A stretch of 64,000 nt of DNA from an uncultured bacterium (lineage in GTDB: Bacteria > Lernaellota > Lernaellaia > JACKCT01). The DNA lies in NCBI GenBank assembly GCA_964586775.1, contig CAZPJD010000184.1:69987-133986 (forward strand), given 5' to 3'. Below the pieces are notes generated by a model, which was not told the origin of the DNA, did no database searches, and saw only the letters and a program-made list of their open reading frames with translations. Positions within the stretch are counted from its first letter, which is position 1; every line of letters starts with the position of its first letter. Shown one piece after another: positions 10,309-47,113 of the stretch. A program made the position numbers and the translations under genes.

Positions 10309-10488
10309 GACCGGTGACTTGGACGTGTCAATCGAATCGGCGAGGACTTCGGATGGTGGGCCGCTAAAAAATGGAGGGGACCGGCGGCGACATCAAGGGA
10401 GGGGTCCAGGCTCCTTGATCGAAACGGTTGTCGGGCGGATTACCAGCCGTTCCGCTGCCGCCGATCCCCGTCCGGTTCTCGTTCACGA

Positions 10489-11193
10489 TCAAGGAGGTTC
10501 GTGCCGCCCTCGTTCGCCAGTTCCGACGAGGATCGCCTCGGCGATCCGTCCCCAGGTTTCGTCGCCCGCGCCGTCCGGCGTTCGCCAGATCGACCGGTGC
10601 GTCCATTCGCCCAGGGTCTTTTCGTTCGACAACCGCGATACGTCGCCGGTTCCCGGCGGTTGGTTCATCACAAAACCGAGGTGAGTGACGCCCGCCGCGC
10701 GTAATGCACGCTCGGTGAGAAGCGCGTGGTTCAGGCAGCCGAGCCGATCGGCGACCACGACCAGCATCCGGGCGCCCGTTTGGGTCGCCAGATCGAGCAG
10801 CGTCCAACCCGGCGCGAGCGGCGCGAGCAGCCCGCCCGCCCCTTCGACCAGCACCACGTCGCACCCGTCGCGAAGGCCATCGACATGCCGCGCGATCAAG
10901 CCCGTGTCGATTTCGACGCCCTCGCTCGCCGCCGCCACATACGGCGCGACCGGCTCGCGAAAGCGGTACAGGCAGACATCCTCGATCGATTGATCCGCCC
11001 CCGCCGCGACGCGAAGACGCCCGGCGTCCGTTTCGTCTGCGTCGCCGTCTTGCGGCCAGCCGGTCTCGAGCGGCTTGCAGACGCGCACGCGAAGCCCCGC
11101 GGCCGTCCACGCCCGCGCGAGCGCGCAGGCGACCCACGTCTTGCCGACGCCGGTGTCGGTGCCGGTGACGGCGATCAGCCGCGCCCGGCTCAC
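10489..11193 (-). CDS. bioD: dethiobiotin synthetase
   Basis: GTG start at 11191-11193, seen as cac on the + strand, overlapping the stop of the upstream gene (GTGA). The N-terminal P-loop is IAVTGTDTGVGKTWV, with BioD motifs CKPLETG and VVLVEGAGGL. Confidence 0.8.
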   Translation of the reverse strand: MSRARLIAVTGTDTGVGKTWVACALARAWTAAGLRVRVCKPLETGWPQDGDADETDAGRLRVAAGADQSIEDVCLYRFREPVAPYVAAASEGVEIDTGLIARHVDGLRDGCDVVLVEGAGGLLAPLAPGWTLLDLATQTGARMLVVVADRLGCLNHALLTERALRAAGVTHLGFVMNQPPGTGDVSRLSNEKTLGEWTHRSIWRTPDGAGDETWGRIAEAILVGTGERGRHEPP

Positions 11194-12494
11194 GGTTTGA
11201 GCTTGGCGGCCTTTTCGACCGCCGCGTCGACGTGCGTGCGGATGGGTTCCATGAGGGCTTCGACGAGGGCGAGCACGATGCCCTCGGTGTGGCGCTGGAG
11301 CAGGTCGTTCGCCTCGTCCTCGGTCAGCTTGTGCGCCTTGGCCGACGCGCGCACGCTTTTGATCACCGACTCGAAGATCTCGCGCCGATACGGATCGGCG
11401 GTTTCGCGCAGAATCTCCTGCGTGAGCGTGACGGCGACGTTGTTGCGCCACAGCTCCTCGATCGCGGGATTGCCCTCGACCTTCTGCTCGGCAACCCACG
11501 CCTTTTTCGCCTCGGCGTCGTCGATCTGTTCGCGAATCAGCGCGACGCTCTGGTCGCTGTCGATGAGCTTGAAGAGGCGATTTTTGAGGTCCTCGTTGGC
11601 CGCGAAGGCGACGCGCCAATACTCGGTCACCGCCGCGCTGATCTTCTGCTTCTCGTCGTCCGTGGTGGTTTTCCACCGCGCCGCCGACGCCGCGAGCAGG
11701 GCGTCGATGCGGATGTTGAACTGGCTGCGCACGACCGCGTCGACGGCGTTGGAGTCGGACTGCGCCTGTTCGGTGCGCGTGACCGGCGGCAGCGTGAGAT
11801 GAAAGACGGCGGGGTCGGGCTTCTTGACCTCGAACGACGTGCGCACGAGGGAACGAACGACAATGTCGTTCTCGCGGTGCTCCACGGCCATCAACACGCC
11901 GGTCTTCGGGTCGATGCGGTGCGTGAAGTTTCCGTACGACACGACGATCTCTTTATCGCCGACCTGCGGTTCGTCGGGATTCGCGGCGAGCCGGTTGAGC
12001 CACGGGGCGTCGCACGCGCGCGCGCCAAAATAGACGGCGAGCTCCGCGTTCGATTCCGTCAGGTCGAGCAGCACAAAGGGAAAGACGTCGGCCTGATCGG
12101 GCCAGGTCTTCGCCGAGGGCACAAGCCAGTCGAGCGCGGCGAGCGCCTTGGCGGATTCCTTCACCACGCGGCGCGCGTTTTCGAGGCTCATCTCGAGCAC
12201 GGTGCCCGATTTTTCGTCGTAGTGAACGAGGCGCTTGCCGTCGTAGGCCGTCCGCACGTTTTTGGACACGACATCCATGCGCACGCGATCGGGCGATGCG
12301 TACGTCACCTCGATGCGGAGCGTCGCGCCGGTGGCGTTGTTCTTTCCCTCGTAAACGGCCGCGAAGCCAGGGAGCTGGAGCAGCTTCGCGCGCAGGTCGT
12401 CGGCGAGCTTTCGGTTGTCGGCCCGCGCGGATCCGGCGAACGCGAAGATAGCGCACCAGACCGCCGCCAAAGACGTAAAAACCCGAACCTTCAT
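11190..12494 (-). CDS. secreted hypothetical protein (434 aa)
   Basis: The start MKVRVF with signal peptide SLAAVWCAIFAFAGSARA. The track ORF extends 9 codons upstream to a GTG. The composition is coherent and Lys/Glu-rich, and the stop overlaps the bioD start. Confidence 0.65.
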   Translation of the reverse strand: MKVRVFTSLAAVWCAIFAFAGSARADNRKLADDLRAKLLQLPGFAAVYEGKNNATGATLRIEVTYASPDRVRMDVVSKNVRTAYDGKRLVHYDEKSGTVLEMSLENARRVVKESAKALAALDWLVPSAKTWPDQADVFPFVLLDLTESNAELAVYFGARACDAPWLNRLAANPDEPQVGDKEIVVSYGNFTHRIDPKTGVLMAVEHRENDIVVRSLVRTSFEVKKPDPAVFHLTLPPVTRTEQAQSDSNAVDAVVRSQFNIRIDALLAASAARWKTTTDDEKQKISAAVTEYWRVAFAANEDLKNRLFKLIDSDQSVALIREQIDDAEAKKAWVAEQKVEGNPAIEELWRNNVAVTLTQEILRETADPYRREIFESVIKSVRASAKAHKLTEDEANDLLQRHTEGIVLALVEALMEPIRTHVDAAVEKAAKLKP

Positions 12495-12509
12495 GAAAAG
12501 CCCCTGCCC

Positions 12510-12687
12510 TGTGGAGAACACCCCTATTTATCAGCCCGGGACGGCATCGGTCAAAACGCGATGGCCACAGCGATATCCACAGAATTTTCCGAATCAGGTC
12601 GGCCAGATCTCGAAGTTATCCCGTTTTCTATCCACACGCCTTTTTTTGCTTCGGAAAACCTGTGGATAAAAGGGCCACTTGTCCACA
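12510..12687. promoter_or_regulatory. cluster of five DnaA-box-like 9-mers (TTATCCACA/TGTGGATAA) in the 226-nt intergenic region, with a T-rich tract
   Basis: The five boxes are: TGTGGAGAA at 12510-12518; ATATCCACA at 12574-12582; CTATCCACA at 12628-12636; a perfect TGTGGATAA at 12661-12669; and TTGTCCACA at 12679-12687. A T7 tract lies at about 12641-12649. Confidence 0.45.
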
Positions 12688-12747
12688 GACAACACTCGCG
12701 ACGCACGCAGGCAAGGCTGAAAAACCGGGCCATCCGGTCGGTTTTCG

Positions 12748-13530
12748 TCACACGCTCGTCGCCCGGAAGCGCGGCACGATCTGCGCCGCCAGCTCGTCCC
12801 AAATATCGGCCGGCGCGGCGAGGTACGCATCGAGGATCTTCTCGCCGTTCAGGGTCGGTGCGGGATCGAAAGGCCGTCGATCGAGATCGAGATAGCTGCA
12901 CCCGACCGCGTCGAGAATGGCGAGGGACGCGGCGAGGTCCCAGATGTGCGACCGAAACGCGAGCGCCGCCGCCGCCTGCCCCGACGCGACGTAGCACAGG
13001 TGCTGCGCGACGCTGCCGTAGCCGCGGATCTTTCCCGCGAAGGTGGTCGTGTAATAGCGATGGAAGTTGCTGGGAGCGAGCAAGAGCCGGCCTTCGCCGA
13101 GCCGGCGATCGACCAGACGCGGCAGCGGCTCGCCGTTCAGATACGCCGTCCCCGCGTCCGCGGCGTACAGCAGGTCGAGGGCGGGATTGAAGAACACGCC
13201 GAGGGTGCATCGCCCGCTTTCCACCAGCCCGATCGAAACACCGAAGTGCACGAAGCCGCGATGGTAGGAATCGGTGCCATCGATGGGATCGACGGCGAAG
13301 GTCGGTCCGCTTCGGTCGCCGTCACCAAGCCCGCCTTCTTCGCCGACAATGGCAAAATCGGGAAACGACCGGCCGAGCGCCTCGACGATGCGCGCCTGCA
13401 CCGCGACGTCGGCGTTGGTGACGATGGAGCCGTCGGGTTTCGTCTCGACGCGAAGGTCGTGACGCAGGTCGAGCGCCAGGCGCCCCGCGTCGCGGGCGAT
13501 GGCGATCACCGCCTGCAAGCGATCGGTCAT
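12748..13530 (-). CDS. inositol monophosphatase family protein (SuhB/CysQ/ImpA-like), copy 1
   Basis: The metal-binding signature FAVDPIDGTDSY (DPIDGT) is present, plus the WDxAAG-like motif IWDLAAS. 260 aa. Its start overlaps the stop of the upstream PP-loop gene (ATGA). Confidence 0.85.
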   Translation of the reverse strand: MTDRLQAVIAIARDAGRLALDLRHDLRVETKPDGSIVTNADVAVQARIVEALGRSFPDFAIVGEEGGLGDGDRSGPTFAVDPIDGTDSYHRGFVHFGVSIGLVESGRCTLGVFFNPALDLLYAADAGTAYLNGEPLPRLVDRRLGEGRLLLAPSNFHRYYTTTFAGKIRGYGSVAQHLCYVASGQAAAALAFRSHIWDLAASLAILDAVGCSYLDLDRRPFDPAPTLNGEKILDAYLAAPADIWDELAAQIVPRFRATSV

Positions 13531-14378
13531 TGGTGCCGGGCTTTCGTTTCTTCGTCGAGCGATTCGTTCATCGATCCCGACCGGTAGCCTTCGAGATCGA
13601 GCACGACGTACGTGAATCCCTGCGACTTGATGGCCGCGATCACGCGTGTGCGCGCGGCCTCGTCGAGCATGCGCGCGAAGTCCGCGGGCGGGATTTCGAC
13701 GCGCGCGATCTCGTCGTGAAAGCGAACCCGATAACCGCGAAAACCCTCTCTACGCAGCGCCTCTTCGCACGCCTCGACGCGACCGAGCCGCGCGACGGAG
13801 ATCGATGTGCCGTACGGAAAGCGCGACGCGAGGCACGCGAACGCGGGCTTGTCCCACGTGGGCAGGTCCATGGCGTGCGACGCCGCGCGGATGTCGTCTT
13901 TCGACAGGCGCGCCTCGGCAAGGGGGTGGCGAACCTCCCAGTCGGCGGCGGCGCGTTTGCCGGGGCGATAGTCGCCTTCGTCGTCGGCGTTGAATCCGTC
14001 GCAGACCCAGCGAATGCCGAGGCGCGTTGCCTCGTCGGCGCAGATGGAAAACAACTCGGTCTTGCAGTGAAAGCAGCGGTCGGGGTTGTTGGCCGCGTAG
14101 TCGGCGTTTTCGATTTCGTGACTGGTCACGACGCGCAGATTCGCACCGACCCGCTTCGCGAAATCGAGCGCCTCGGCGAGTTCGGATCGCGGCAGCGAGG
14201 GGCCGTCGGCGATGAGCCCCGTCACGCCTTCGCCGACGTTTTTTGCCGCGAAGGCGAGCAGAAACGCGGAATCGACGCCGCCGGAGAAGGCCACGAGAAA
14301 GCGGTCCATGTCGCGCAGGATCGCGCGCAGCCGGTCCAGCTTGTCGTCGAGATTGGAATTTTCTCGGGCCGTGTTCAT
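13527..14378 (-). CDS. PP-loop ATP pyrophosphatase of the TIGR00268/LarE-like family (three-Cys variant)
   Basis: PP-loop LVAFSGGVDSAFL. A conserved Cys cluster CFHCKTELFSIC (CxxCx7C) resembles the Fe-S-type LarE-like sulfur-insertion enzymes. 283 aa. Confidence 0.75.
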   Translation of the reverse strand: MNTARENSNLDDKLDRLRAILRDMDRFLVAFSGGVDSAFLLAFAAKNVGEGVTGLIADGPSLPRSELAEALDFAKRVGANLRVVTSHEIENADYAANNPDRCFHCKTELFSICADEATRLGIRWVCDGFNADDEGDYRPGKRAAADWEVRHPLAEARLSKDDIRAASHAMDLPTWDKPAFACLASRFPYGTSISVARLGRVEACEEALRREGFRGYRVRFHDEIARVEIPPADFARMLDEAARTRVIAAIKSQGFTYVVLDLEGYRSGSMNESLDEETKARHQ

Positions 14379-14559: not shown

Positions 14560-14955
14560 TTACTTTGCGAACGCGCGCACGTAAGCCGCCACGTCCTTGA
14601 TTTCCTGATCTTTCAGCGTGCCCTTCCACGGGGCCATAAGAGGCGACTTGCCGACCGCCGCGCCGCCCTCGGTGATGACCTTGAGCAGGTTTTCGTCGGT
14701 CAGGCCGGTCATGTACGCCTTGTCGGTGAAGGCGCGCGGCTTGGGGTTGAGCGCCGCGCCCGCGGGGCCGTTGCCGTCGCCTTTTTCGCCGTGGCACGAG
14801 AAGCAGAAGGTCTTGTAGGGGGCCGCGCCTTTGGCCGCGTCGCCGAGCAGACCGGCGGCATCGGCGGCGGGGCCGAACGCGATCTGCGCCGCCATCGCCA
14901 AGGCCATCGCCATGGCGACCGTCATCACGAACTTGGAAACCGAACCCTTGCTCAT
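14560..14955 (-). CDS. class I c-type cytochrome (mono-haem, c553-like), periplasmic
   Basis: Signal peptide MTVAMAMALAMAAQIAFG, a haem-binding CFSCHG (CxxCH) motif, and a distal Met candidate in LMAPW. 131 aa. It is the last gene of the molybdoenzyme operon. Confidence 0.85.
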   Translation of the reverse strand: MSKGSVSKFVMTVAMAMALAMAAQIAFGPAADAAGLLGDAAKGAAPYKTFCFSCHGEKGDGNGPAGAALNPKPRAFTDKAYMTGLTDENLLKVITEGGAAVGKSPLMAPWKGTLKDQEIKDVAAYVRAFAK

Positions 14956-15028
14956 GTCATCTCTCCTTCATCGATTCCGCGGCGGGCGACCCGCCGGATG
15001 TGGGCGACGGCGAATGTTCGTCGCGGTT

Positions 15029-15781
15029 TCACGAATGGGGGACGCCGGGATCGAACTCGACGGGCGTCCATTGTTCCTCGGTGGCCATGGGGCACTCGTA
15101 GGGCGTGCCGTCGTCGGCGACGAACGCCGCCGGATCGCCCGCGGGCCAGTTGTGCGCGAGCACAAGGCCGTCCCACAGATGGCCCAGCGCCGCGGCCGCC
15201 GCGTCGAGCACGCCGCCGGGCACGGTGGCCGAGAGCCGCTCGCAAAAAGCGGGCAGCCAGTCGCCCAGGTGATCCCACACGAAGCCGTCGATGGCGGCCT
15301 GCGTGATCGTCAGACGTTCGTGCTCGGCCTCGGCCTTGGCGCGCTCGGCCATCACCAGCAGCGCGGCGAGGAATTCGAGCTCGCAGACGAGGTGATCGGC
15401 GCGGCGCTCGCCGGGTTGATCGGCGCGAAAGCCGAACGCCTCGTAGAATCCGGCGATGTCTCCCAGGATCGCGCCCTTGTCGCGACGCACGAACGCCGAC
15501 TCGTAAGGCGGGCAGTCGGACTGCGCCCAGAACGCGCGGGCGTGCTCGGCCTCGATCTGGTCGAGCGGTGCGCCCGTCACGCGGGCGTGGAGTTCGTCGA
15601 TCGCCGCGACCAGCGCCTCGGCCCCGCCGAAACCCGCCGTGTCGATCAGGGCGCGCAGATCCTCGATCTTCGTGTCGCGCAGCGCGTGCGCCGAGGCGGG
15701 GCTGTTGAAGGCGTCGGCGAGCACGCCCAGCAGGTCGGACTGCGCGAGCGGCGCGAGGTTGGTGAAGCCGACGGTCGTCAC
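15029..15781 (-). CDS. TorD/NarJ-family redox-enzyme maturation chaperone (delta subunit)
   Basis: GTG start overlapping the gamma-subunit stop (GTGA). The sequence is helical and Ala/Leu/Glu-rich, with TorD-family features (EHARAFW...YESAF...). 250 aa. Confidence 0.7.
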   Translation of the reverse strand: MTTVGFTNLAPLAQSDLLGVLADAFNSPASAHALRDTKIEDLRALIDTAGFGGAEALVAAIDELHARVTGAPLDQIEAEHARAFWAQSDCPPYESAFVRRDKGAILGDIAGFYEAFGFRADQPGERRADHLVCELEFLAALLVMAERAKAEAEHERLTITQAAIDGFVWDHLGDWLPAFCERLSATVPGGVLDAAAAALGHLWDGLVLAHNWPAGDPAAFVADDGTPYECPMATEEQWTPVEFDPGVPHS

Positions 15782-16755
15782 GGTTGCACCTCGAAGGGCA
15801 CCCAGTTCGTCCAGTGCTTTCGCCCGCCGACGTTTTCGTGCGTGCCTTCCCAAACGGCGAACGACACCTGGCCCGTGCCGCCGAGCTGGAACTGGTAGTC
15901 GCCCGGATCGCTCGACGAGAGCGGTCGCGAAAACACAACGGACCACGTTCCGTTCGCCCACACGCCCTTGGCACGCGAGACGGAATCCTTCTGGTGCGTG
16001 AGCGTGCCGAAACCCTCGGCGATCAGTTCTTCGGCCGGCTGCGTGCGAGAGAACACGGCCAGGGGATTGCCCGCCTGGTTGGCGACGAACCACTGCATCG
16101 AGCGCGGGTCCTTGAACGCCGACGGGATCGGATACGGGAACTGGCCCTCGGCGAACCAGTACAGGTCGCTCCAGTAGTTCGGATGAAGATCCTGAACGTC
16201 CTGAAAGCCCACGTCGAGGTCCTTCTGCCACAGCGCCTTCCAGTGGACGATCTGCACCTTGCCGGTTTCACGGTGGCCCATCATGGGGGCCGCGCCGGGG
16301 TCGAGGGGGAACTGCATCGCCACTGCGTCGGTGAACCTGGCCGTATCGACGTTTCCGTCGGCGGTGGCATCGGTCCACGTGAGCCGCCACGCGATGGTCT
16401 TGCCGTCGGTCACCGCCTGCACATCGACCTGATCGAGGGCCTTTTGCTCGGGCAAGAGCTGCGGCGCGGTGATGAGTTGCGGCAGCACGGGAACGCGATA
16501 GTACGGAACATCCTTCCAGTATTCGGCATACGGATTGTCCGTCGCGAGGTCGGCCTTGGCCCGAACGACGACGAGCTTGTCGGCCTGCGAAGAGTTGATG
16601 GTCGGAAACTCGCCGGCGGGCGGCCACGGGGCCTTGGCGACCGGCGCGGCGGCGTCTTCCAGCGCGGCTTCGGGCGCGGTGGTGGACGCGCACGCGGCGG
16701 CGAACGCGAGCGCGATCGTTGCAACAACACCCACGATGATGGTTCGCATCGTCAT
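15778..16755 (-). CDS. gamma subunit, periplasmic haem b protein of type II DMSO-reductase-family enzymes (EbdC/NxrC/DdhC-like)
   Basis: Signal peptide with lipobox-like AFAAAC. 325 aa. The sequence resembles ethylbenzene-dehydrogenase gamma/DOMON-like haem-binding subunits. It sits immediately downstream of the beta subunit. Confidence 0.7.
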   Translation of the reverse strand: MTMRTIIVGVVATIALAFAAACASTTAPEAALEDAAAPVAKAPWPPAGEFPTINSSQADKLVVVRAKADLATDNPYAEYWKDVPYYRVPVLPQLITAPQLLPEQKALDQVDVQAVTDGKTIAWRLTWTDATADGNVDTARFTDAVAMQFPLDPGAAPMMGHRETGKVQIVHWKALWQKDLDVGFQDVQDLHPNYWSDLYWFAEGQFPYPIPSAFKDPRSMQWFVANQAGNPLAVFSRTQPAEELIAEGFGTLTHQKDSVSRAKGVWANGTWSVVFSRPLSSSDPGDYQFQLGGTGQVSFAVWEGTHENVGGRKHWTNWVPFEVQP

Positions 16756-16765
16756 TGCCCGCCCC

Positions 16766-17893
16766 TCAGTTCGTGTTGTGACGATACGCGCCGAAGCGCT
16801 CGTCGCGGTGATCGCGAATGTACGTCGGCTCGGTGAAGGGCACGCGGGTCACCTCTTCGCCCTTGTCGTTCCAGCCGACCACCTCGTCGCCCTGCACCTC
16901 GAACCGGTCGATGATGTACTCGGTCGATCCAAAGAGCATGAGCGCGCCGAGGAGCTTCTTGTCGTTCTTCAAGTTTCGGTAAGTCTCTTTCGCCTCTTCC
17001 ACGCCCGGCCCGAAGATCATCTCGAGGAAGCCGTCGGGCACGTGGATCGGCGGGATGTAGTAGACGTTCGGACCGGTGCCGAACTGCGGGTAGAGCGGCA
17101 ACGCGAGCTTGCGGATCTTGACGATGTAGTCGAAGGGATTGTCCTCGCGCGGCTGGTCCTGCGTGGTGAGGAAACCGTGCAGGCGGATCTTGCCGATGCA
17201 CGACTCGACGCACAGCGCGACCTTGCCTTCTTCGACGCGCGGGAAGCAGCCGATGCACTTCTCGCTCGCGCGGCCGATGACGTTGTAGAAGACCTTCTTG
17301 TACGGGCAGGCCTTCACGCACTCCTGATAGCCGCGGCAGCGCTCCTGATCGACGAGCACGATGCCGTCCTCTTCGCGTTTGTAGATCGCCTTGCGCGGGC
17401 ACGCGGCGGCGCAGGCCGGGTTGTCGCAGTGGTTGCAGATGCGCGCGAGGTAGAACATCCAGTGCGGGTGAACGCCATCGAAGAATCCGCCCTGTTCCAT
17501 CAGGCCGGTCGTGTCGTCCTCGCCGATATTCGGCGCGGCGTAGTCCTCGATGACGGGGCGGTGGCCGGTCGGCGGGTCGAGCGGACCGTGCGTTTCAAAG
17601 ACGGTCTTGCCGATGAACGTGACCTTGTTCCACTCGCCCGGGCCCTGCATGTCCAGCAGCTTCTGATCCCAGGCCAGCGGATAGCCGCCGTATGGCTTGG
17701 TCTCGACGTTGTTGTAGAAGATGTGCTCCTGGCCCTTGCCACTGGTCCAGCAGGTTTTGCAGGCCACGGTGCAGGTCTGGCACTCGATGCACTTGTTCGT
17801 ATCGAAGATGTAGGCGACCTGCCGTTTGGGCGGAGTGGAATCGTAGGGGTAATCCATCTCCCGGCCGATCTGCCAATTGAATCGCTTCGCCAT
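16766..17893 (-). CDS. beta subunit, four-cluster Fe-S protein of a NarH/EbdB-type molybdoenzyme
   Basis: Four Cys clusters: CIECQTCTVAC, CNHCDNPACAAAC, CRGYQECVKAC and CIGCFPRVEEGKVALCVESC. The N-terminus MAKRFNWQIGREMD...NKCIECQTC is typical of NarH/EbdB/SerB. 375 aa. Confidence 0.9.
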   Translation of the reverse strand: MAKRFNWQIGREMDYPYDSTPPKRQVAYIFDTNKCIECQTCTVACKTCWTSGKGQEHIFYNNVETKPYGGYPLAWDQKLLDMQGPGEWNKVTFIGKTVFETHGPLDPPTGHRPVIEDYAAPNIGEDDTTGLMEQGGFFDGVHPHWMFYLARICNHCDNPACAAACPRKAIYKREEDGIVLVDQERCRGYQECVKACPYKKVFYNVIGRASEKCIGCFPRVEEGKVALCVESCIGKIRLHGFLTTQDQPREDNPFDYIVKIRKLALPLYPQFGTGPNVYYIPPIHVPDGFLEMIFGPGVEEAKETYRNLKNDKKLLGALMLFGSTEYIIDRFEVQGDEVVGWNDKGEEVTRVPFTEPTYIRDHRDERFGAYRHNTN

Positions 17894-17914
17894 GGTCGAT
17901 GCCTCCGTTGATGA

Positions 17915-21394
<3,480 letters not shown>

Positions 21395-21558
21395 GTCGCC
21401 TCCCGCGATCGCGATGGGATGTCGTACCTGTGGAACGAACTCGAACCCTGGGAAACCAGTTGCCCTGCGGCCGACGACGGGCGTCGGGGCGGCGGGCAAA
21501 ATCCGAAAAATGACGTGTTCCGTCGCGAGCCTTATCCCACATGCCGCGGGGCATGAGT

Positions 21559-36007: not shown

Positions 36008-37327
36008 TCAGCGTTTCGTCGCGGGCGGCGTGGGGCGAATCCGGTCGGTAATTGGGCGACCGTGGGGATCGTGGTCGGGATTCCCCAGATGCCCCGCCAG
36101 ATCTTCGCGCAGGTCGTCCGTCAGGTAGTGTTCCACGCGGTCCGCCGGTCCGTGCACGCGGTCGGGCGCAACGCCGAAATATTTCTCCAGATAGCTCTCC
36201 CACAACCGATGCCCGCGAATCAGATTCGCGGCCCGCGACGCGCCGCGTTCGGTGAGAATCAGGGAATCGGCGTCCCGCCGGATTTCGCGCGCGCGGATCG
36301 CCGCCGTGAGGGCAATGCGGGACCAAATCTCGCCGCCGACCGCCGACAAGGCGTCGCGCTCCGAGAGACGACGATCCGGCGACGCCTCGCGAAGGCGATA
36401 GAGCATGCCGAGCAGGTCCTCGCGCACCACGTTGAGCGCGGCCCAGGCACGGGAGACGCGCTTCGCGAGCCAGCCGTAGCGGGGCGCGAAAAAGACTACC
36501 AGCGCGAAGGTCAGCCCCGCGGCGACGGCCATCATTCCGGCGGCCGATGTGGACAGCGCGCTCGCGCCGAACCGACCCACGAGCGCGGCGAGCGCGCCGA
36601 GTGCGGCGGAGATGATCGCCATGACCCAGAGACGATCGGTGAGCAGGTACGCCGTCGCGGGCGGCACGATGAGCATCGCCACGACGAGGATCGACCCGAC
36701 CGCCTCGAACGCGGCGACGCAGTACGCGGCGGTCATGAACATCAGCGCCGCGTGAACCCACGACGCGCGGATCCCCAAGGTCGTCGCGAGGTCGGGGTCG
36801 AAGGACACGATTTTGAGTTCCTTCCAAAACGCGACCACGAATGCGATCACCGCGAGCGTCATGACGCCCATCGTGACGGTGATGCGCGGGACCTCGAAGC
36901 CCCATATCGCGCGCGTGTCCAGCGCCGCCGATTCGAGGATTCCATACAGCACGCACCCCGGATCGAGATCGACGGCGCTCGCCGAGCGCGTGATGATGAC
37001 GACGCCCGCGGCGAAGAGCGTCGTGAAGACCACGCCCATGGCCGCGTCCTCGGGCACGCCGGCGAAGCGGCGGATCCACTCGGTCAGCGCGGCGGTCGCC
37101 AAACCCGCCAGCGCCGCGCCGACGAGCATCGCCAACGGCGCGCGGGACTGCGTGACGACGAAAGAGATCGCCAGCCCCGGCAGGATTGCGTGAGAGATCG
37201 CGTCGCCCAGCAGACTCAGGCGGCGAAGAACGAGGTAGTTGCCGAGCAGCGCGCCCGACACGCCCACCATCGCACCGGTCACGACGATCCAGAACGCGAT
37301 GGCGTCGAACCCGAGCACCGTGCCCAT
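36008..37327 (-). CDS. metal (Mn/Zn) ABC transporter permease fused to a C-terminal DtxR-like metal-binding/dimerisation domain
   Basis: The start MGTVLGFDAIAFWIVV, with ATG at 37325-37327 overlapping the stop of the upstream permease. It has 8-9 TM segments of the MntB/TroD type. The C-terminus LWESYLEKYFG...HLGNPDHDPHGRPI parallels the DtxR-family domain of the regulator at 35321. Confidence 0.85.
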   Translation of the reverse strand: MGTVLGFDAIAFWIVVTGAMVGVSGALLGNYLVLRRLSLLGDAISHAILPGLAISFVVTQSRAPLAMLVGAALAGLATAALTEWIRRFAGVPEDAAMGVVFTTLFAAGVVIITRSASAVDLDPGCVLYGILESAALDTRAIWGFEVPRITVTMGVMTLAVIAFVVAFWKELKIVSFDPDLATTLGIRASWVHAALMFMTAAYCVAAFEAVGSILVVAMLIVPPATAYLLTDRLWVMAIISAALGALAALVGRFGASALSTSAAGMMAVAAGLTFALVVFFAPRYGWLAKRVSRAWAALNVVREDLLGMLYRLREASPDRRLSERDALSAVGGEIWSRIALTAAIRAREIRRDADSLILTERGASRAANLIRGHRLWESYLEKYFGVAPDRVHGPADRVEHYLTDDLREDLAGHLGNPDHDPHGRPITDRIRPTPPATKR

Positions 37328-38724
37328 CACGCCCCTCCCACGTGGGCGTGCGCTTTCGCGGGCTCGGGCCACCGGCCCTCGCGGCGAAGCATCGACTCCA
37401 ATTCCTCGACGAGCGAGGGCGGTAGCGCCTGCTCGAGCTGCGTCGTGTCGCGATCGGCGTAGTCGCCGGCGACATCGGCATAGCGCGTCAGAAACAGTTC
37501 CCACAACCGTCTCGACTTGGCGACCGCCGCGGCGTCGGCAAGCCCACTCGGGGTCAATCGAACGCTTCCGTCCGACAACTCGACCTGCCTGCGGCGGATT
37601 GCGATGGCGATTTCGTGGTGGACATGGCGCTCGCTCCACGACCTGGCGGTCAGCACCCGATCGAGGGGGATCGCGGGAAGTGCGACGGGGTTCGGGCCGG
37701 AAAGTTCGTAGAGCGTGCGCAGGAGATTTTGCCGCGCGACGCGCGAGCGCATCGACGCAAATGAAATCGCGCGGGAGATGACGCCGCGTCGCGGGGCGAC
37801 GAGCATGGACACGGAAAAGATCGCCCCGCCGGTAAGCACGATCATCGCCCCGGCGGGAAACTCCGACCAATGCGCGCTCGCCGCCGTTCCCGCCGCGCCG
37901 GTCACGAGGCCGAATATTCCCGCGAGGATGAGCATGTGGCCGAGGCGCTCGGTCCAGAATCGCGCCGAAACGCCGGGCAGGATGATGAGCGACGCCATGA
38001 GCACGACGCCGACGGCGGGAAGACCGATGACGACCGCCGCGACGAGCAGCGCCATCATGAGCGCGTCGAGCGCCAATACGGGGAAGCCCTGGACCGACGC
38101 GAACGCGGCGTCGAAGGACAGGAGCTTGAATTCCTTGTAGAGCAGCAGCGTGATCGCGACGATGTTCGCGCCCACGAGGGCGATGAAGACGAGATCCTGG
38201 CTCACCATGCCGGCCGTCTTGCCGAGCAGAAACGAGTCGAGCCCCGCCTGCCTACCGGTCGGATCGTTCTGCGCGATGCCCGACAGCGCGATTCCCGCGC
38301 CATAGAAGACCGATAGCACGATGCCGATCGCCGCGTCGGCCTTGATGCGCGTGTGCCGCTGCAGCCACGACACGCACGTCGATCCCAATAGGCCGGAGGC
38401 CAGCGCCCCCGCCAGAAGCCACGCGAAGTCCCGCTCGCGCAGGACCAGAAACGCCGCGGCCACGCCGGGCAGCGCCGCATGGGCGACCGCGTCTCCGACC
38501 AGCGAACGACGGCGCAGCACGGCGTAAGAACCGATGATGCCCGATGCCGCGCCCAGCAGGCTCGTTCCCAGCAGCACGAGGAGCGTGTTGTACTGAAGTC
38601 CGACGGCGCCCGCGACGGTCTCGACGATGCGCACCACGCCCGCCGGACCGACGAGCGCGTGCGCGGCGGCCTGCGCGCCGATCAGCACCCCCAGGACGAT
38701 GGCGAGTCGCCGCAGCGGCATCAC
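37327..38724 (-). CDS. metal ABC transporter permease (second TroC/MntB-type subunit), also carrying a C-terminal DtxR-like extension
   Basis: The TM core is paralogous to the downstream permease. The C-terminal soluble tail is RRLWELFLTRYADVAGDYADRDTTQLEQ. 465 aa. Confidence 0.85.
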   Translation of the reverse strand: MMPLRRLAIVLGVLIGAQAAAHALVGPAGVVRIVETVAGAVGLQYNTLLVLLGTSLLGAASGIIGSYAVLRRRSLVGDAVAHAALPGVAAAFLVLRERDFAWLLAGALASGLLGSTCVSWLQRHTRIKADAAIGIVLSVFYGAGIALSGIAQNDPTGRQAGLDSFLLGKTAGMVSQDLVFIALVGANIVAITLLLYKEFKLLSFDAAFASVQGFPVLALDALMMALLVAAVVIGLPAVGVVLMASLIILPGVSARFWTERLGHMLILAGIFGLVTGAAGTAASAHWSEFPAGAMIVLTGGAIFSVSMLVAPRRGVISRAISFASMRSRVARQNLLRTLYELSGPNPVALPAIPLDRVLTARSWSERHVHHEIAIAIRRRQVELSDGSVRLTPSGLADAAAVAKSRRLWELFLTRYADVAGDYADRDTTQLEQALPPSLVEELESMLRREGRWPEPAKAHAHVGGA

Positions 38725-45911: not shown

Positions 45912-46295
45912 TCACGCCAGCGCGCTGCGTATCTTTTCCGAAAGGAGATTTGCGGATTTCCAAATCTCTTCCGCTTCGCCCGCATGCTCCAGGATTTTCT
46001 GCCGATAGACGCTTTGCGAGGTGACCTGCGGATAGAACGAAAGTTCGTGCAAAAACTCGAGATCCGCGCCGGAAAGCGATGCGTCGAGACCGCTCGCGCG
46101 CGCCAAGGCGGGCAGGTGTGGTTCATTCGGCGGATAGCGGTTTTGCGTTTCGAGAAAATAGCCGCGCAGGAGTTTGAATAGCGCCTGATGGCAGAGGAAA
46201 CCGACCCAGAACGGGCGGCCGGAATCGAGAAGCGTGCGCGCGGCGTCGAGGTCGTCGCGGCAACCCTCGACGTACTTGACCACCACGTCCATCAT
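45912..46295 (-). CDS. HEPN-domain protein (solo, no adjacent nucleotidyltransferase)
   Basis: It has the four-helix HEPN layout and a conserved Arg/His region (LRGYFLETQNRYPPNEPHLPALARASG). The start was taken at MMDVVV to avoid overlap with the upstream IMPase gene; the track starts at 46316. Confidence 0.6.
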   Translation of the reverse strand: MMDVVVKYVEGCRDDLDAARTLLDSGRPFWVGFLCHQALFKLLRGYFLETQNRYPPNEPHLPALARASGLDASLSGADLEFLHELSFYPQVTSQSVYRQKILEHAGEAEEIWKSANLLSEKIRSALA

Positions 46296-47113
46296 GGCGC
46301 GCCCGTCTCCCGCCACGCGGGATTTTGCGCGAGAAGGCGTCGAAGCTCGCCGTGAATCGCCGCGCTTCCCGCGACCACATGGCGCGGCGGATCGCCGATC
46401 GGCTCACCCGCGAAGTCGGTGACGAGCCCGCCGGCCTCGGCGACGACCAGCGCGCCCGCCGCCACGTCCCACACGTTCAGCCGCAGCTCCCAAAATCCAT
46501 CGAGCCGTCCCATGGCGACCCAGCACAGGTCGATCGCCGCGCTGCCCATGCGCCGGATGCCGCGCACGTGCGGCACGATGGTCGCGAAATGGTCCAGGTT
46601 GTTATGGGGATTCGTCTTCTTGTCGTAAGGAAAGCCCGTGCCCACGATGGCATCGGCGAGCCGCGTCTTGTCGCTTACGCGGATCGGCGCGTCGTTGCAT
46701 GTCGCTCCGCCGCCGCGAATGGCGACGAATGTCTCGCCAAATCGCGGCGCGTGGACGACGCCGACCTGCGTCGCGCCGCCGCGCACGAGGGCGATGGAGA
46801 CGCAAAACATCGGGATGCCGTTGGCGTAGTTGTTCGTGCCGTCGAGGGGATCGACCACCCAGCGCCACAGGGCGGCGAGGTCGTGCCGCGCGCCCTCTTC
46901 GCCCACGTACCCGCTGCCGGGAAACGCGGCGAGCAGTCGCTCGCGGCACAGCGCCTCGGCGGCGAGATCGGCCGCCGTGACCAGATCGTACTCGCCCTTG
47001 CGGTCGATCGTCGCACGGCCCTGGTAGTCGAGCAGCAGCTCGCCCGCCTCGACCGCGACGCCGCGCGCGATGCCCGCCCAGTGCGCGAGGTCGACCGATT
47101 CGGCGAGCGTCAC
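46292..47113 (-). CDS. inositol monophosphatase family protein, copy 2
   Basis: VVDPLDGTNNY metal-binding motif and the WDVAAG motif. 273 aa. Confidence 0.8.
   Translation of the reverse strand: MTLAESVDLAHWAGIARGVAVEAGELLLDYQGRATIDRKGEYDLVTAADLAAEALCRERLLAAFPGSGYVGEEGARHDLAALWRWVVDPLDGTNNYANGIPMFCVSIALVRGGATQVGVVHAPRFGETFVAIRGGGATCNDAPIRVSDKTRLADAIVGTGFPYDKKTNPHNNLDHFATIVPHVRGIRRMGSAAIDLCWVAMGRLDGFWELRLNVWDVAAGALVVAEAGGLVTDFAGEPIGDPPRHVVAGSAAIHGELRRLLAQNPAWRETGAP

What the first reader, a model, noticed from the sequence alone, without database searches (positions are those of the whole stretch)
12495..12747. Cluster of five DnaA boxes in a 226-nt intergenic region, not next to dnaA
Between a secreted-protein gene and the IMPase/PP-loop operon lie five DnaA-box-like 9-mers in both orientations, one perfect and four with a single mismatch. 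The perfect box is TGTGGATAA. The others are ATATCCACA, CTATCCACA, TTGTCCACA and TGTGGAGAA. A T-rich tract (ttttttt) sits among them. Such density is characteristic of oriC, of DnaA-titration loci (datA-like), or of strongly DnaA-regulated promoters. Both flanking genes are on the same strand, and no dnaA/dnaN is nearby. A secondary DnaA-binding locus or a DnaA-controlled promoter of the downstream secreted protein is therefore more likely than the origin itself.
Basis: seen in the sequence. Interest (0 to 1): 0.55.

Follow-up and report, generated by a model that had tools for sequence, protein, structure and literature searches.

The report
DnaA-box cluster on an operon promoter
A short non-coding stretch carries a real, conserved cluster of binding sites for the replication initiator DnaA; it is most likely a DnaA-controlled promoter and DnaA sink inside an operon, a known kind of element, and not the chromosome's replication origin.

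Summary
All five matches to TTATCCACA (one mismatch or fewer) in the 64-kb window lie in 12510-12687, inside the 253-nt spacer between an inositol-monophosphatase-family (IMPase) gene and a gene for a secreted LolA-fold protein. Local-composition chance is about 1e-9. Two weaker boxes sit 3 bp from strong ones.

The cluster recurs at the same place in every related locus with a comparable spacer:
- two loci at 89% protein identity have five boxes each, with conserved spacing;
- one locus at 49% has three boxes;
- two at 35-39% have degenerate boxes.

It is absent from one lineage with a 60-nt spacer. More distant homologues have the two genes overlapping.

An origin is unlikely. No dnaA or dnaN is in the window. 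No AT-rich unwinding element or DnaA-trio run was found. GC skew and gene orientation do not switch here, and about 78% of coding DNA to the right is on the strand that an origin here would replicate as lagging.

The best reading is a non-origin DnaA-box cluster of the Bacillus subtilis type. It lies over an internal promoter (TTGACC-N17-ATAAAT), with one box at the predicted transcription start. DnaA binding itself is untested. This is a new member of a known kind, of modest interest.

The parts
12495..12747 (.). Intergenic spacer that holds the DnaA-box cluster, between the IMPase stop codon and the ATG of the LolA-fold protein gene
   Evidence: It contains the lowest-GC 100-nt stretch of the window, 43% GC.
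12679..12687 (+). Box B1, TTGTCCACA (1 mismatch). It forms an inverted pair with B2, 9 nt apart.
   Evidence: repeat I6. It is TTATCCACA in L002 and TTGTCCACA in L003.
12661..12669 (-). Box B2, perfect TTATCCACA (the + strand reads TGTGGATAA)
   Evidence: It is degenerate (TTGCCCACA) in L002 and L003, where a different box is the perfect one.
12637..12660 (.). Conserved T-tract/A-tract element (cgcctttttttgcttcggaaaacc) between the divergent boxes B2 and B3. Possibly an intrinsic bend or a site for another protein.
   Evidence: 21 of 24 columns are invariant among window, L002 and L003. It has no IHF consensus match. A box plus TTTTCCGAA occurs twice as an inverted repeat (repeats I3 and I4).
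12628..12636 (+). Box B3, CTATCCACA (1 mismatch)
12616..12624 (+). Box B3b, TTATCCCGT. It is degenerate here (3 mismatches), sits 3 bp from B3 and has the same orientation.
   Evidence: The homologous position is TTATCCACT (1 mismatch) in L002 and L003.
12573..12581 (+). Box B4, ATATCCACA (1 mismatch)
12561..12569 (+). Box B5, ATGGCCACA. It is a weak box (3 mismatches) in tandem with B4 at a 12-nt period.
   Evidence: repeat D3, GCGATGGCCACA / GCGATATCCACA. The position is conserved in L002 and L003.
12526..12554 (-). Promoter-like element read on the minus strand: TTGACC (12554-12549), a 17-nt spacer, then ATAAAT inside TGATAAAT (12533-12526)
   Evidence: Read from the sequence. 23 of 29 columns are invariant in window, L002 and L003. 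The strict consensus scan did not report it, so it is inferred.
12510..12518 (-). Box B6, TTCTCCACA (1 mismatch), at about +1 to +10 of the predicted promoter and 20 nt before the ATG
   Evidence: It is identical in window, L002 and L003.
12720..12741 (-). Weak terminator-like hairpin plus T-run just after the IMPase stop codon
   Evidence: A hairpin followed by a T-run is kept in L002 and L003, but the energy is no better than shuffles.
11190..12494 (-). Downstream gene: a 434-aa secreted protein with a LolA-fold N-domain and a long helical C-domain. It is the first gene of the unit LolA-like, BioD-like, 2Fe-2S ferredoxin-like, AroE, AroK, FG-GAP.
   Evidence: The model has pLDDT 90.7. Foldseek against PDB matches LolA at E 7.5e-9. 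No Pfam or NCBIfam family matched. Synteny is shown.
10489..11193 (-). BioD-like (AAA_26/CbiA) gene. Its GTG start overlaps the stop codon of the LolA-like gene.
   Evidence: Pfam family labels
12748..13530 (-). Upstream gene: an inositol-monophosphatase-family protein, preceded by LarE (13527-14378)
   Evidence: PF00459 at 1e-40. LarE matches TIGR00268 at 305 bits.

Best explanation
This is a DnaA-box cluster outside the replication origin, lying over an internal promoter of a conserved operon.

Ancestrally the IMPase-family gene and the LolA-fold protein gene were contiguous, and they overlap in distant relatives. In this clade a 250-300-nt spacer separates them. It carries a weak terminator-like hairpin, four strong or medium DnaA boxes (B1-B4), two weak boxes placed 3 bp from strong ones (B3b, B5), a promoter-like TTGACC-N17-ATAAAT, and a seventh box (B6) at the predicted transcription start.

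Proposed mechanism (inferred, not shown):
1. DnaA domain IV occupies the strong boxes.
2. ATP-DnaA spreads cooperatively onto the adjacent weak boxes.
3. Together with the box at +1, this oligomer modulates RNA polymerase at the promoter, most probably repressing it.
4. Expression of the LolA-like, BioD-like, ferredoxin-like, AroE, AroK, FG-GAP unit then follows the cellular level of active DnaA.
5. As a by-product, each copy of the locus holds about five to seven DnaA molecules away from the origin.

Shown: the boxes, their non-random clustering, their conservation in place and spacing, and the gene context. Inferred: DnaA binding, the promoter, and the direction of regulation.
For: Clustering:
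- All five boxes with one mismatch or fewer in 64 kb lie within 178 nt.
- P is about 1e-9 with local composition.
- No permuted motif clusters this way.

Conservation:
- In L002 (21 kb), L003 (7 kb) and L004 (14 kb), every such box in the locus lies in the homologous spacer: 5, 5 and 3 boxes.
- Box centre spacing is conserved between window and L002: 18, 33, 12-13, 42-43, 12 and 50-51 nt.
- Box columns are 84% invariant against 67% for the spacers between them. Four-fold degenerate sites of the flanking genes are 61-76% identical.
- Which box is the perfect one differs between relatives. That fits selection on the array as a whole.
- More distant syntenic loci still show enrichment of two-mismatch boxes. 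L008 has 3 of 11 in 145 nt and L009 has 4 of 29 in 200 nt.
- A homologue at 25% identity, in a 49%-GC organism, has a perfect box 39 nt before its ATG.

Promoter context:
- TTGACC-N17-ATAAAT, a Shine-Dalgarno AGGGG and box B6 between them are conserved.

Precedent:
- B. subtilis has six such clusters in intergenic regions. Some control neighbouring genes and some restrain initiation (PMC3245932; PMC4447404).
- DnaA boxes ahead of the gidA promoter regulate transcription in P. aeruginosa (PMC13438810).
Against: - No binding or expression data exist for this uncultured lineage.
- The strict sigma-70 scan reported no promoter, and the -10 element is poor.
- In L004 no promoter is evident in the 87-nt spacer.
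- The L006/L011 lineage keeps the synteny with no boxes at all, so DnaA control is not essential to the operon.
- The regulated genes have no obvious link to replication or the cell cycle.
- Seven boxes is more than most DnaA-regulated promoters carry.
Confidence: 0.6

Rival explanations
1. The main role is control of DnaA, not of the neighbouring genes. The cluster would act as a datA-like sink or inactivation site, or as a DARS-like reactivation site that tunes initiation at a distant origin. Any effect on transcription would be secondary.
For: - Five to seven boxes in 180 bp matches the density of B. subtilis DBCs and of E. coli datA, whose minimal region is 183-262 bp (PMC5742627; PMC3245932).
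- Four boxes (B3, B3b, B4, B5) share one orientation, as the essential datA boxes do.
- B2 is opposite to B3 and B3b, which loosely recalls the DARS core, where box I is opposite to boxes II and III.
- A highly conserved T/A-tract element lies between the divergent boxes, where datA and oriC carry a bending-protein site.
- The array varies from 0 to 7 boxes among relatives with unchanged gene content. That fits a dosage-type element better than a gene-specific switch.
Against: - No IHF consensus is present in the spacer.
- Distance to the origin is unknown.
- The boxes wrap a conserved promoter-like element, and one sits at +1, which suggests transcription is affected.
- datA and DARS are defined by biochemical activities that sequence cannot show.
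- This reading does not exclude the best explanation.
Confidence: 0.2
2. It is the chromosomal replication origin (oriC) of this organism, located away from dnaA.
For: - Box density is typical of an origin, and the spacer length is similar to the 245-bp minimal E. coli oriC (PMC5742627).
- The spacer holds the lowest-GC 100-nt stretch of the window.
- GC skew changes sign locally near 11-13 kb.
- Many bacteria have an oriC that is not next to dnaA (general knowledge).
Against: - Skew returns to negative from 20 kb to 64 kb. Whole-flank values have the same sign in the window (-0.025 left, -0.013 right), in L002 and in L004.
- About 78% of coding bases to the right are on the minus strand, which an origin here would make the lagging strand.
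- There is no AT-rich unwinding element; minimum GC is 33% over 30 nt.
- There is no DnaA-trio run.
- No dnaA, dnaN, gyrB, parAB, gidAB or rpmH lies in the window.
- The homologous spacer is 87 nt in L004 and about 60 nt with no box in L006 and L011. The two genes overlap in L013 and L015.
- The spacer must also hold a terminator-like hairpin, a promoter and a 5' leader.
Confidence: 0.07
3. The repeated motif is bound by another factor, not DnaA. A lineage-specific transcription factor would recognise CTGTGGA-type sites, and the likeness to DnaA boxes would be coincidental.
For: - Several sites share a flanking base (CTGTGGA, equivalent to TCCACAG), so the motif may be longer than 9 nt.
- Two sites are followed by TTTTCCGAA.
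- No DnaA binding data exist.
Against: - The consensus of about 25 sites across relatives is TT[A/G]TCCACA over the full 9 positions. That is the near-universal DnaA box (PMC4447404 gives TTATNCACA).
- Substitutions fall at positions 1, 3 and 9, while the CCACA core is kept.
- Sites occur singly, in tandem and inverted at varied spacings. This is typical of DnaA and unlike a dimeric factor with a fixed palindrome.
Confidence: 0.08

Closest known systems
[quoted passage not shown]
   Same: - Both are arrays of several DnaA boxes in an intergenic region away from the origin's unwinding site.
- Both overlap the promoter of a neighbouring gene.
- In B. subtilis, DnaA activates sda and represses ywlC and yydA. 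Together the clusters restrain initiation (PMC3245932, PMC4447404).
   Different: - This is a different phylum with about 65% GC.
- Here the cluster sits inside an ancestrally contiguous operon.
- Binding, regulatory effect and distance from the origin are all unknown.
Escherichia coli datA
   Same: Both are non-coding clusters of DnaA boxes of about 200-260 bp, with several boxes in one orientation and a conserved element between boxes (PMC5742627).
   Different: - datA needs a defined IHF site and stimulates DnaA-ATP hydrolysis.
- No IHF consensus is present here, and the activity cannot be tested.
- There is no sequence homology.
Escherichia coli DARS1 and DARS2
   Same: The DARS core has three boxes, with one opposite to the other two (PMC5742627). 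B2 against B3 and B3b has that orientation pattern.
   Different: - The DARS core has a fixed, tight spacing, and DARS2 has regulatory IHF and Fis sites.
- Here B2 and B3 are 24 nt apart.
- ADP-release activity cannot be tested.
DnaA-regulated promoters (autoregulated dnaA promoter; P. aeruginosa gidA promoter within oriCII)
   Same: Both have DnaA boxes upstream of, and overlapping, a sigma-70-type promoter, so that transcription follows DnaA activity (PMC13438810).
   Different: - Those promoters lie in the origin region and drive replication or segregation genes.
- This one drives a periplasmic LolA-fold protein and shikimate-pathway and biotin-like genes, and lies far from any dnaA.
Streptomyces coelicolor DnaA-box clusters
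   Same: Both are in high-GC genomes with extra box clusters. In S. coelicolor they affect replication control (cited in PMC3245932 and PMC5742627).
   Different: Those clusters are origin-proximal and were tested in vivo. The position of this one relative to the origin is unknown.

Membership tests
oriC (chromosomal replication origin) | Cluster of DnaA boxes | tested here: met
   Five boxes with one mismatch or fewer, plus two weak ones, lie within 180 nt.
oriC (chromosomal replication origin) | Adjacent AT-rich DNA unwinding element and/or DnaA-trio repeats | tested here: not met
   Minimum GC is 33% over 30 nt and 40% over 50 nt, and much of that is the boxes themselves. No run of at least 4 matching trios out of 5 occurs on either strand.
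oriC (chromosomal replication origin) | Located at the switch of GC skew and of gene orientation | tested here: not met
   Skew has the same sign on both flanks in the window, L002 and L004. About 78% of coding bases to the right are on the minus strand. Only 64 kb could be examined, so this counts as strong but not final.
oriC (chromosomal replication origin) | Supports initiation (marker-frequency peak, autonomous replication) | not testable with these tools
   This needs read-depth profiles of the whole genome or a plasmid replication assay.
Non-origin DnaA-box cluster (DBC, B. subtilis type) | Several DnaA boxes clustered in an intergenic region outside the origin | tested here: met
   The origin features are absent, as in the oriC rows above.
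Non-origin DnaA-box cluster (DBC, B. subtilis type) | Stable DnaA binding in vivo or in vitro | not testable with these tools
   This needs ChIP, DAP-seq or EMSA.
Non-origin DnaA-box cluster (DBC, B. subtilis type) | Overlaps and controls the promoter of a neighbouring gene | tested here: inconclusive
   A conserved TTGACC-N17-ATAAAT with box B6 at about +1 can be read in the sequence. The strict consensus scan found no promoter, and there are no expression data.
datA | IHF-binding site between the essential DnaA boxes | tested here: not met
   WATCAANNNNTTR with one mismatch or fewer has no hit in 12495-12747. A conserved T/A-tract element lies between B2 and B3 instead.
datA | Stimulates hydrolysis of DnaA-bound ATP | not testable with these tools
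   This is a biochemical assay.
DARS | Core of three boxes at fixed close spacing, with box I opposite to boxes II and III | tested here: inconclusive
   The orientation pattern of B2 against B3 and B3b fits. However, B2 and B3 are 24 nt apart, and the E. coli spacing was not available to compare.

The most novel reading that the evidence does not exclude
The cluster would be a dedicated regulator of the DnaA cycle in an uncultured lineage that NCBI labels Deltaproteobacteria. The MAG isolate names suggest GTDB lineage FEN-1099. In function it would be an analogue of datA or DARS that arose independently, by expansion of a spacer inside an operon. The conserved T/A-tract element between the divergent boxes would then serve as the bend that E. 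coli obtains from IHF.
Probability: 0.15. Interest if true: 0.55.

Novelty: new member of a known kind. Interest (0 to 1): 0.3.

Why it matters
DnaA-box clusters away from the origin have been characterised experimentally in only a few model bacteria: E. coli, B. subtilis, Streptomyces, Caulobacter and Pseudomonas. This locus shows the same kind of element in an uncultured, high-GC lineage.

The related loci also form a graded series for the same spacer:
- the two genes overlap;
- a 60-nt spacer with no boxes;
- an 87-nt spacer with 3 boxes;
- a 250-300-nt spacer with 5-7 boxes.

That series illustrates how such a cluster can grow inside an operon. The locus is also a caution for origin-prediction tools: on box density alone, this region would be called an origin candidate.

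Tried and rejected
- **Wasted search.** spent a protein search on a wrong-frame ORF (10364-11137). The real BioD-like gene is 10489-11193.
- **Few new relatives found.** The genome-contig scan with the 4-sequence alignment found nothing. The metagenome scan returned only a duplicate of L003. The 21-sequence profile search returned only 5 proteins, and that alignment was too divergent for a locus scan. Relatives had to be reached through the representative-library search plus contig look-ups.
- **dnaA locus not retrievable.** I could not fetch the dnaA locus, or more than 21 kb, of any related assembly. A genome-wide skew analysis and a comparison with a dnaA-proximal origin were therefore impossible.
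- **Possible depletion of boxes outside the cluster.** The window has 0 hits outside the cluster against about 7.7 expected from shuffles for TTATNCACA. I rejected this, because 18% of same-composition permuted motifs also have zero hits.
- **Third-codon-position GC skew per gene.** It is dominated by the coding strand and shows no flip at 12.6 kb, so it is uninformative beyond that.
- **Rfam.** The only hit was a sub-threshold CcsR1 match inside the coding region, which I treat as chance.
- **Motif scans.** DnaA-trio and IHF consensus scans were negative.
- **Terminator hairpin.** It folds no better than shuffled sequence, so I keep it only as 'terminator-like'.

Full report

Yes. The spacer 12495-12747 (253 nt) lies between the stop codon of an inositol-monophosphatase-family (IMPase) gene (12748-13530, minus strand) and the ATG of a 434-aa secreted-protein gene (11190-12494, minus strand). 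A search for TTATCCACA with up to one mismatch finds five sites in the whole 64-kb window. The relaxed consensus TTATNCACA gives the same five sites.

The total number is not remarkable, since shuffles give 2.6 per window. The clustering is remarkable:
- With the spacer's own base composition, 0.043 boxes are expected, so P(5 or more) is about 1e-9.
- Among 300 letter-permuted versions of the motif, none gave more than three hits in any 253-nt span of the window.

Two further weak positions sit 3 bp from strong boxes in the same orientation. ATGGCCACA (12561-12569) forms a 12-nt tandem repeat with ATATCCACA. TTATCCCGT (12616-12624) is a one-mismatch box in the relatives.

**2. Surroundings**

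The upstream genes are LarE (TIGR00268, 305 bits) and the IMPase-family protein. The downstream unit has six genes:
- the secreted protein;
- a BioD-like protein whose GTG start overlaps the preceding stop codon;
- a 2Fe-2S ferredoxin-like protein;
- AroE;
- AroK;
- an FG-GAP protein.

The secreted protein has no Pfam or NCBIfam match. It models with high confidence (pLDDT 90.7) as an N-terminal LolA fold (Foldseek against PDB, E 7.5e-9) followed by a long helical domain.

Read in the direction of the genes, the spacer contains, in order:
1. a weak hairpin plus T-run just after the IMPase stop codon;
2. boxes B1 and B2 as an inverted pair, 9 nt apart;
3. a conserved 24-nt T-tract/A-tract element;
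4. boxes B3 and B3b, then B4 and B5, all in one orientation;
5. a promoter-like TTGACC-N17-ATAAAT;
6. box B6 at about +1 to +10;
7. a Shine-Dalgarno AGGGG and the ATG.

The promoter is my reading of the sequence. The strict consensus scan did not report it.

**3. Related loci**

The secreted-protein family is rare. It has 21 clusters at 50% identity among 1.84 billion representative proteins. Each homologous spacer is listed below; the identity is that of the LolA-like protein to the window's protein.

| Locus | Protein identity | Spacer length | Boxes in the spacer |
|---|---|---|---|
| L002 | 89% | 305 nt | 5 with one mismatch or fewer; none elsewhere in 21 kb |
| L003 | 89% | 292 nt | 5 with one mismatch or fewer; none elsewhere in 7 kb |
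| L004 | 49% | 87 nt | 3 with one mismatch; none elsewhere in 14 kb |
| L008 | 39% | about 320 nt as called | 3 of the locus's 11 two-mismatch boxes within 145 nt |
| L009 | 35% | about 400 nt as called | 4 of the locus's 29 two-mismatch boxes within 200 nt |
| L006, L011 | 32-33% | about 60 nt | none, with synteny intact |
| L013, L015-L017 | about 21% | genes overlap | none |
| L007 | 25% | 104 nt seen | one perfect box 39 nt before the ATG (49% GC organism) |

Within the close clade:
- Box spacing is conserved: 18, 33, 12-13, 42-43, 12 and 50-51 nt between box centres.
- Box columns are more conserved than the spacers between them (84% against 67% invariant).
- Four-fold degenerate sites in the flanking genes are 61-76% identical.
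- Which box is the perfect one differs between genomes. That is turnover within a maintained array.

The cluster is therefore a derived, selected elaboration of a spacer inside an ancestrally contiguous IMPase and LolA-like operon.

**4. Is it the origin?**

Points in favour:
- Box density is high and the spacer is about the size of a minimal origin.
- The spacer holds the lowest-GC 100-nt stretch in the window.
- GC skew changes sign locally near 12 kb.

Points against:
- The positive skew covers only 12.7-21.6 kb, then returns to negative for the remaining 42 kb. That stretch contains a molybdopterin oxidoreductase gene cluster that is absent from the same position in L002.
- Whole-flank skews have the same sign in the window, L002 and L004.
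- About 78% of coding bases to the right of the cluster are on the minus strand, which an origin here would make the lagging strand.
- There is no AT-rich unwinding element and no DnaA-trio run.
- No dnaA was found by tblastn, and no dnaN, gyrB, parAB, gidAB or rpmH among about 45 scanned proteins.
- The same spacer shrinks to 87 nt, to 60 nt, or to nothing in relatives.

I put the origin reading at about 7%. Whole-genome skew, the position of dnaA and read-depth profiles could not be obtained with the data available.

**5. Most likely mechanism**

The element fits the known class of non-origin DnaA-box clusters. In B. subtilis, six such clusters lie in intergenic regions. DnaA activates sda and represses ywlC and yydA from them, and together they restrain initiation (PMC3245932; PMC4447404). 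In P. aeruginosa, DnaA boxes ahead of the gidA promoter control the operon (PMC13438810).

Here I infer the following sequence of events:
1. DnaA binds the strong boxes.
2. ATP-DnaA extends onto the weak neighbours spaced 3 bp away.
3. With B6 at the transcription start, the complex modulates, and probably represses, the internal promoter.
4. The locus also sequesters several DnaA molecules per copy.

Transcription control and titration are not exclusive. I cannot tell which one is the selected function. The variable box number among relatives with the same genes leans slightly toward a dosage-type role.

Neither datA nor DARS membership can be claimed. No IHF consensus is present, the DARS-like orientation pattern has a different spacing, and both families are defined by biochemical activities (PMC5742627).

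**6. Novelty and score**

This is a new member of a known kind. The points of interest are modest:
- it is an example from an uncultured lineage that NCBI labels Deltaproteobacteria, where the isolate names 'FR-FEN-1099-1' and 'HK-STAS-FEN-2' suggest GTDB lineage FEN-1099 (inference from names only);
- the graded series of spacers shows how such a cluster can grow inside an operon.

Interest is 0.3.

Noticed in passing
window 14560-21499 (minus strand): A type II DMSO-reductase-family complex lies here. It comprises a 1194-aa NarG/EbdA-like alpha subunit (17915-21499), a 4Fe-4S beta subunit (16766-17893), an EB_dh haem subunit (15778-16755) and a cytochrome c (14560-14955). It sits directly upstream of LarE but is absent from that position in L002 and L009. 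It coincides with the only stretch of positive GC skew in the window, so it may be an acquired or rearranged block.
   Followed up: partly
L013 5240-7284; L015 1388-3453; window 11190-13530: The IMPase-family gene and the LolA-fold protein gene stay adjacent down to about 21% protein identity, and they overlap in the distant loci. This points to a functional link between a cytoplasmic phosphatase-family enzyme and a periplasmic LolA-like protein, of unknown nature.
   Followed up: partly
window 11190-12494: The secreted protein belongs to a rare family, with 21 clusters at 50% identity in 1.84 billion representatives. It has no Pfam or NCBIfam model. It is confidently predicted as a LolA-fold domain fused to a helical domain of about 190 residues.
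   Followed up: partly
window 12574-12596 and 12647-12668: A DnaA box followed by TTTTCCGAA occurs twice as a 23-nt inverted repeat, 50 nt apart. The central copy is almost invariant in L002 and L003, while the other copy is not. Its function is unknown; it could be a bend or a second factor's site.
   Followed up: partly
L007 57-65: A perfect TGTGGATAA lies 39 nt before the ATG of a homologue only 25% identical, in a 49%-GC metagenomic contig. This hints that the link between DnaA boxes and this gene family may extend beyond the clade. Only 104 nt of upstream sequence was available.
   Followed up: no
window 37327-38724: An ABC-3 (Znu/Tro-type) permease domain is fused to the C-terminal metal-binding domain of an iron-dependent repressor. 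It sits next to ZnuA-like and ABC ATPase genes.
   Followed up: no
window 46292-47113: A second, better-scoring IMPase-family gene (PF00459, 1.2e-64) lies elsewhere in the window. The copy next to the box cluster is the more divergent paralogue.
   Followed up: no
L009 5240-5784 and 18592-21083: RNase HII, PriA, the histidine kinase and the FG-GAP genes are each split into fragments on the 549-kb contig JAOSJX010000001.1. This is probably frameshift error from long-read assembly, so the gene calls and start sites there are unreliable.
   Followed up: no
window 12353-12448 (minus strand): A sub-threshold Rfam hit to the CcsR1 sRNA (19.6 bits against a gathering score of 65.3, E 0.03) lies inside the 5' coding region of the secreted-protein gene. 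It is probably chance.
   Followed up: no
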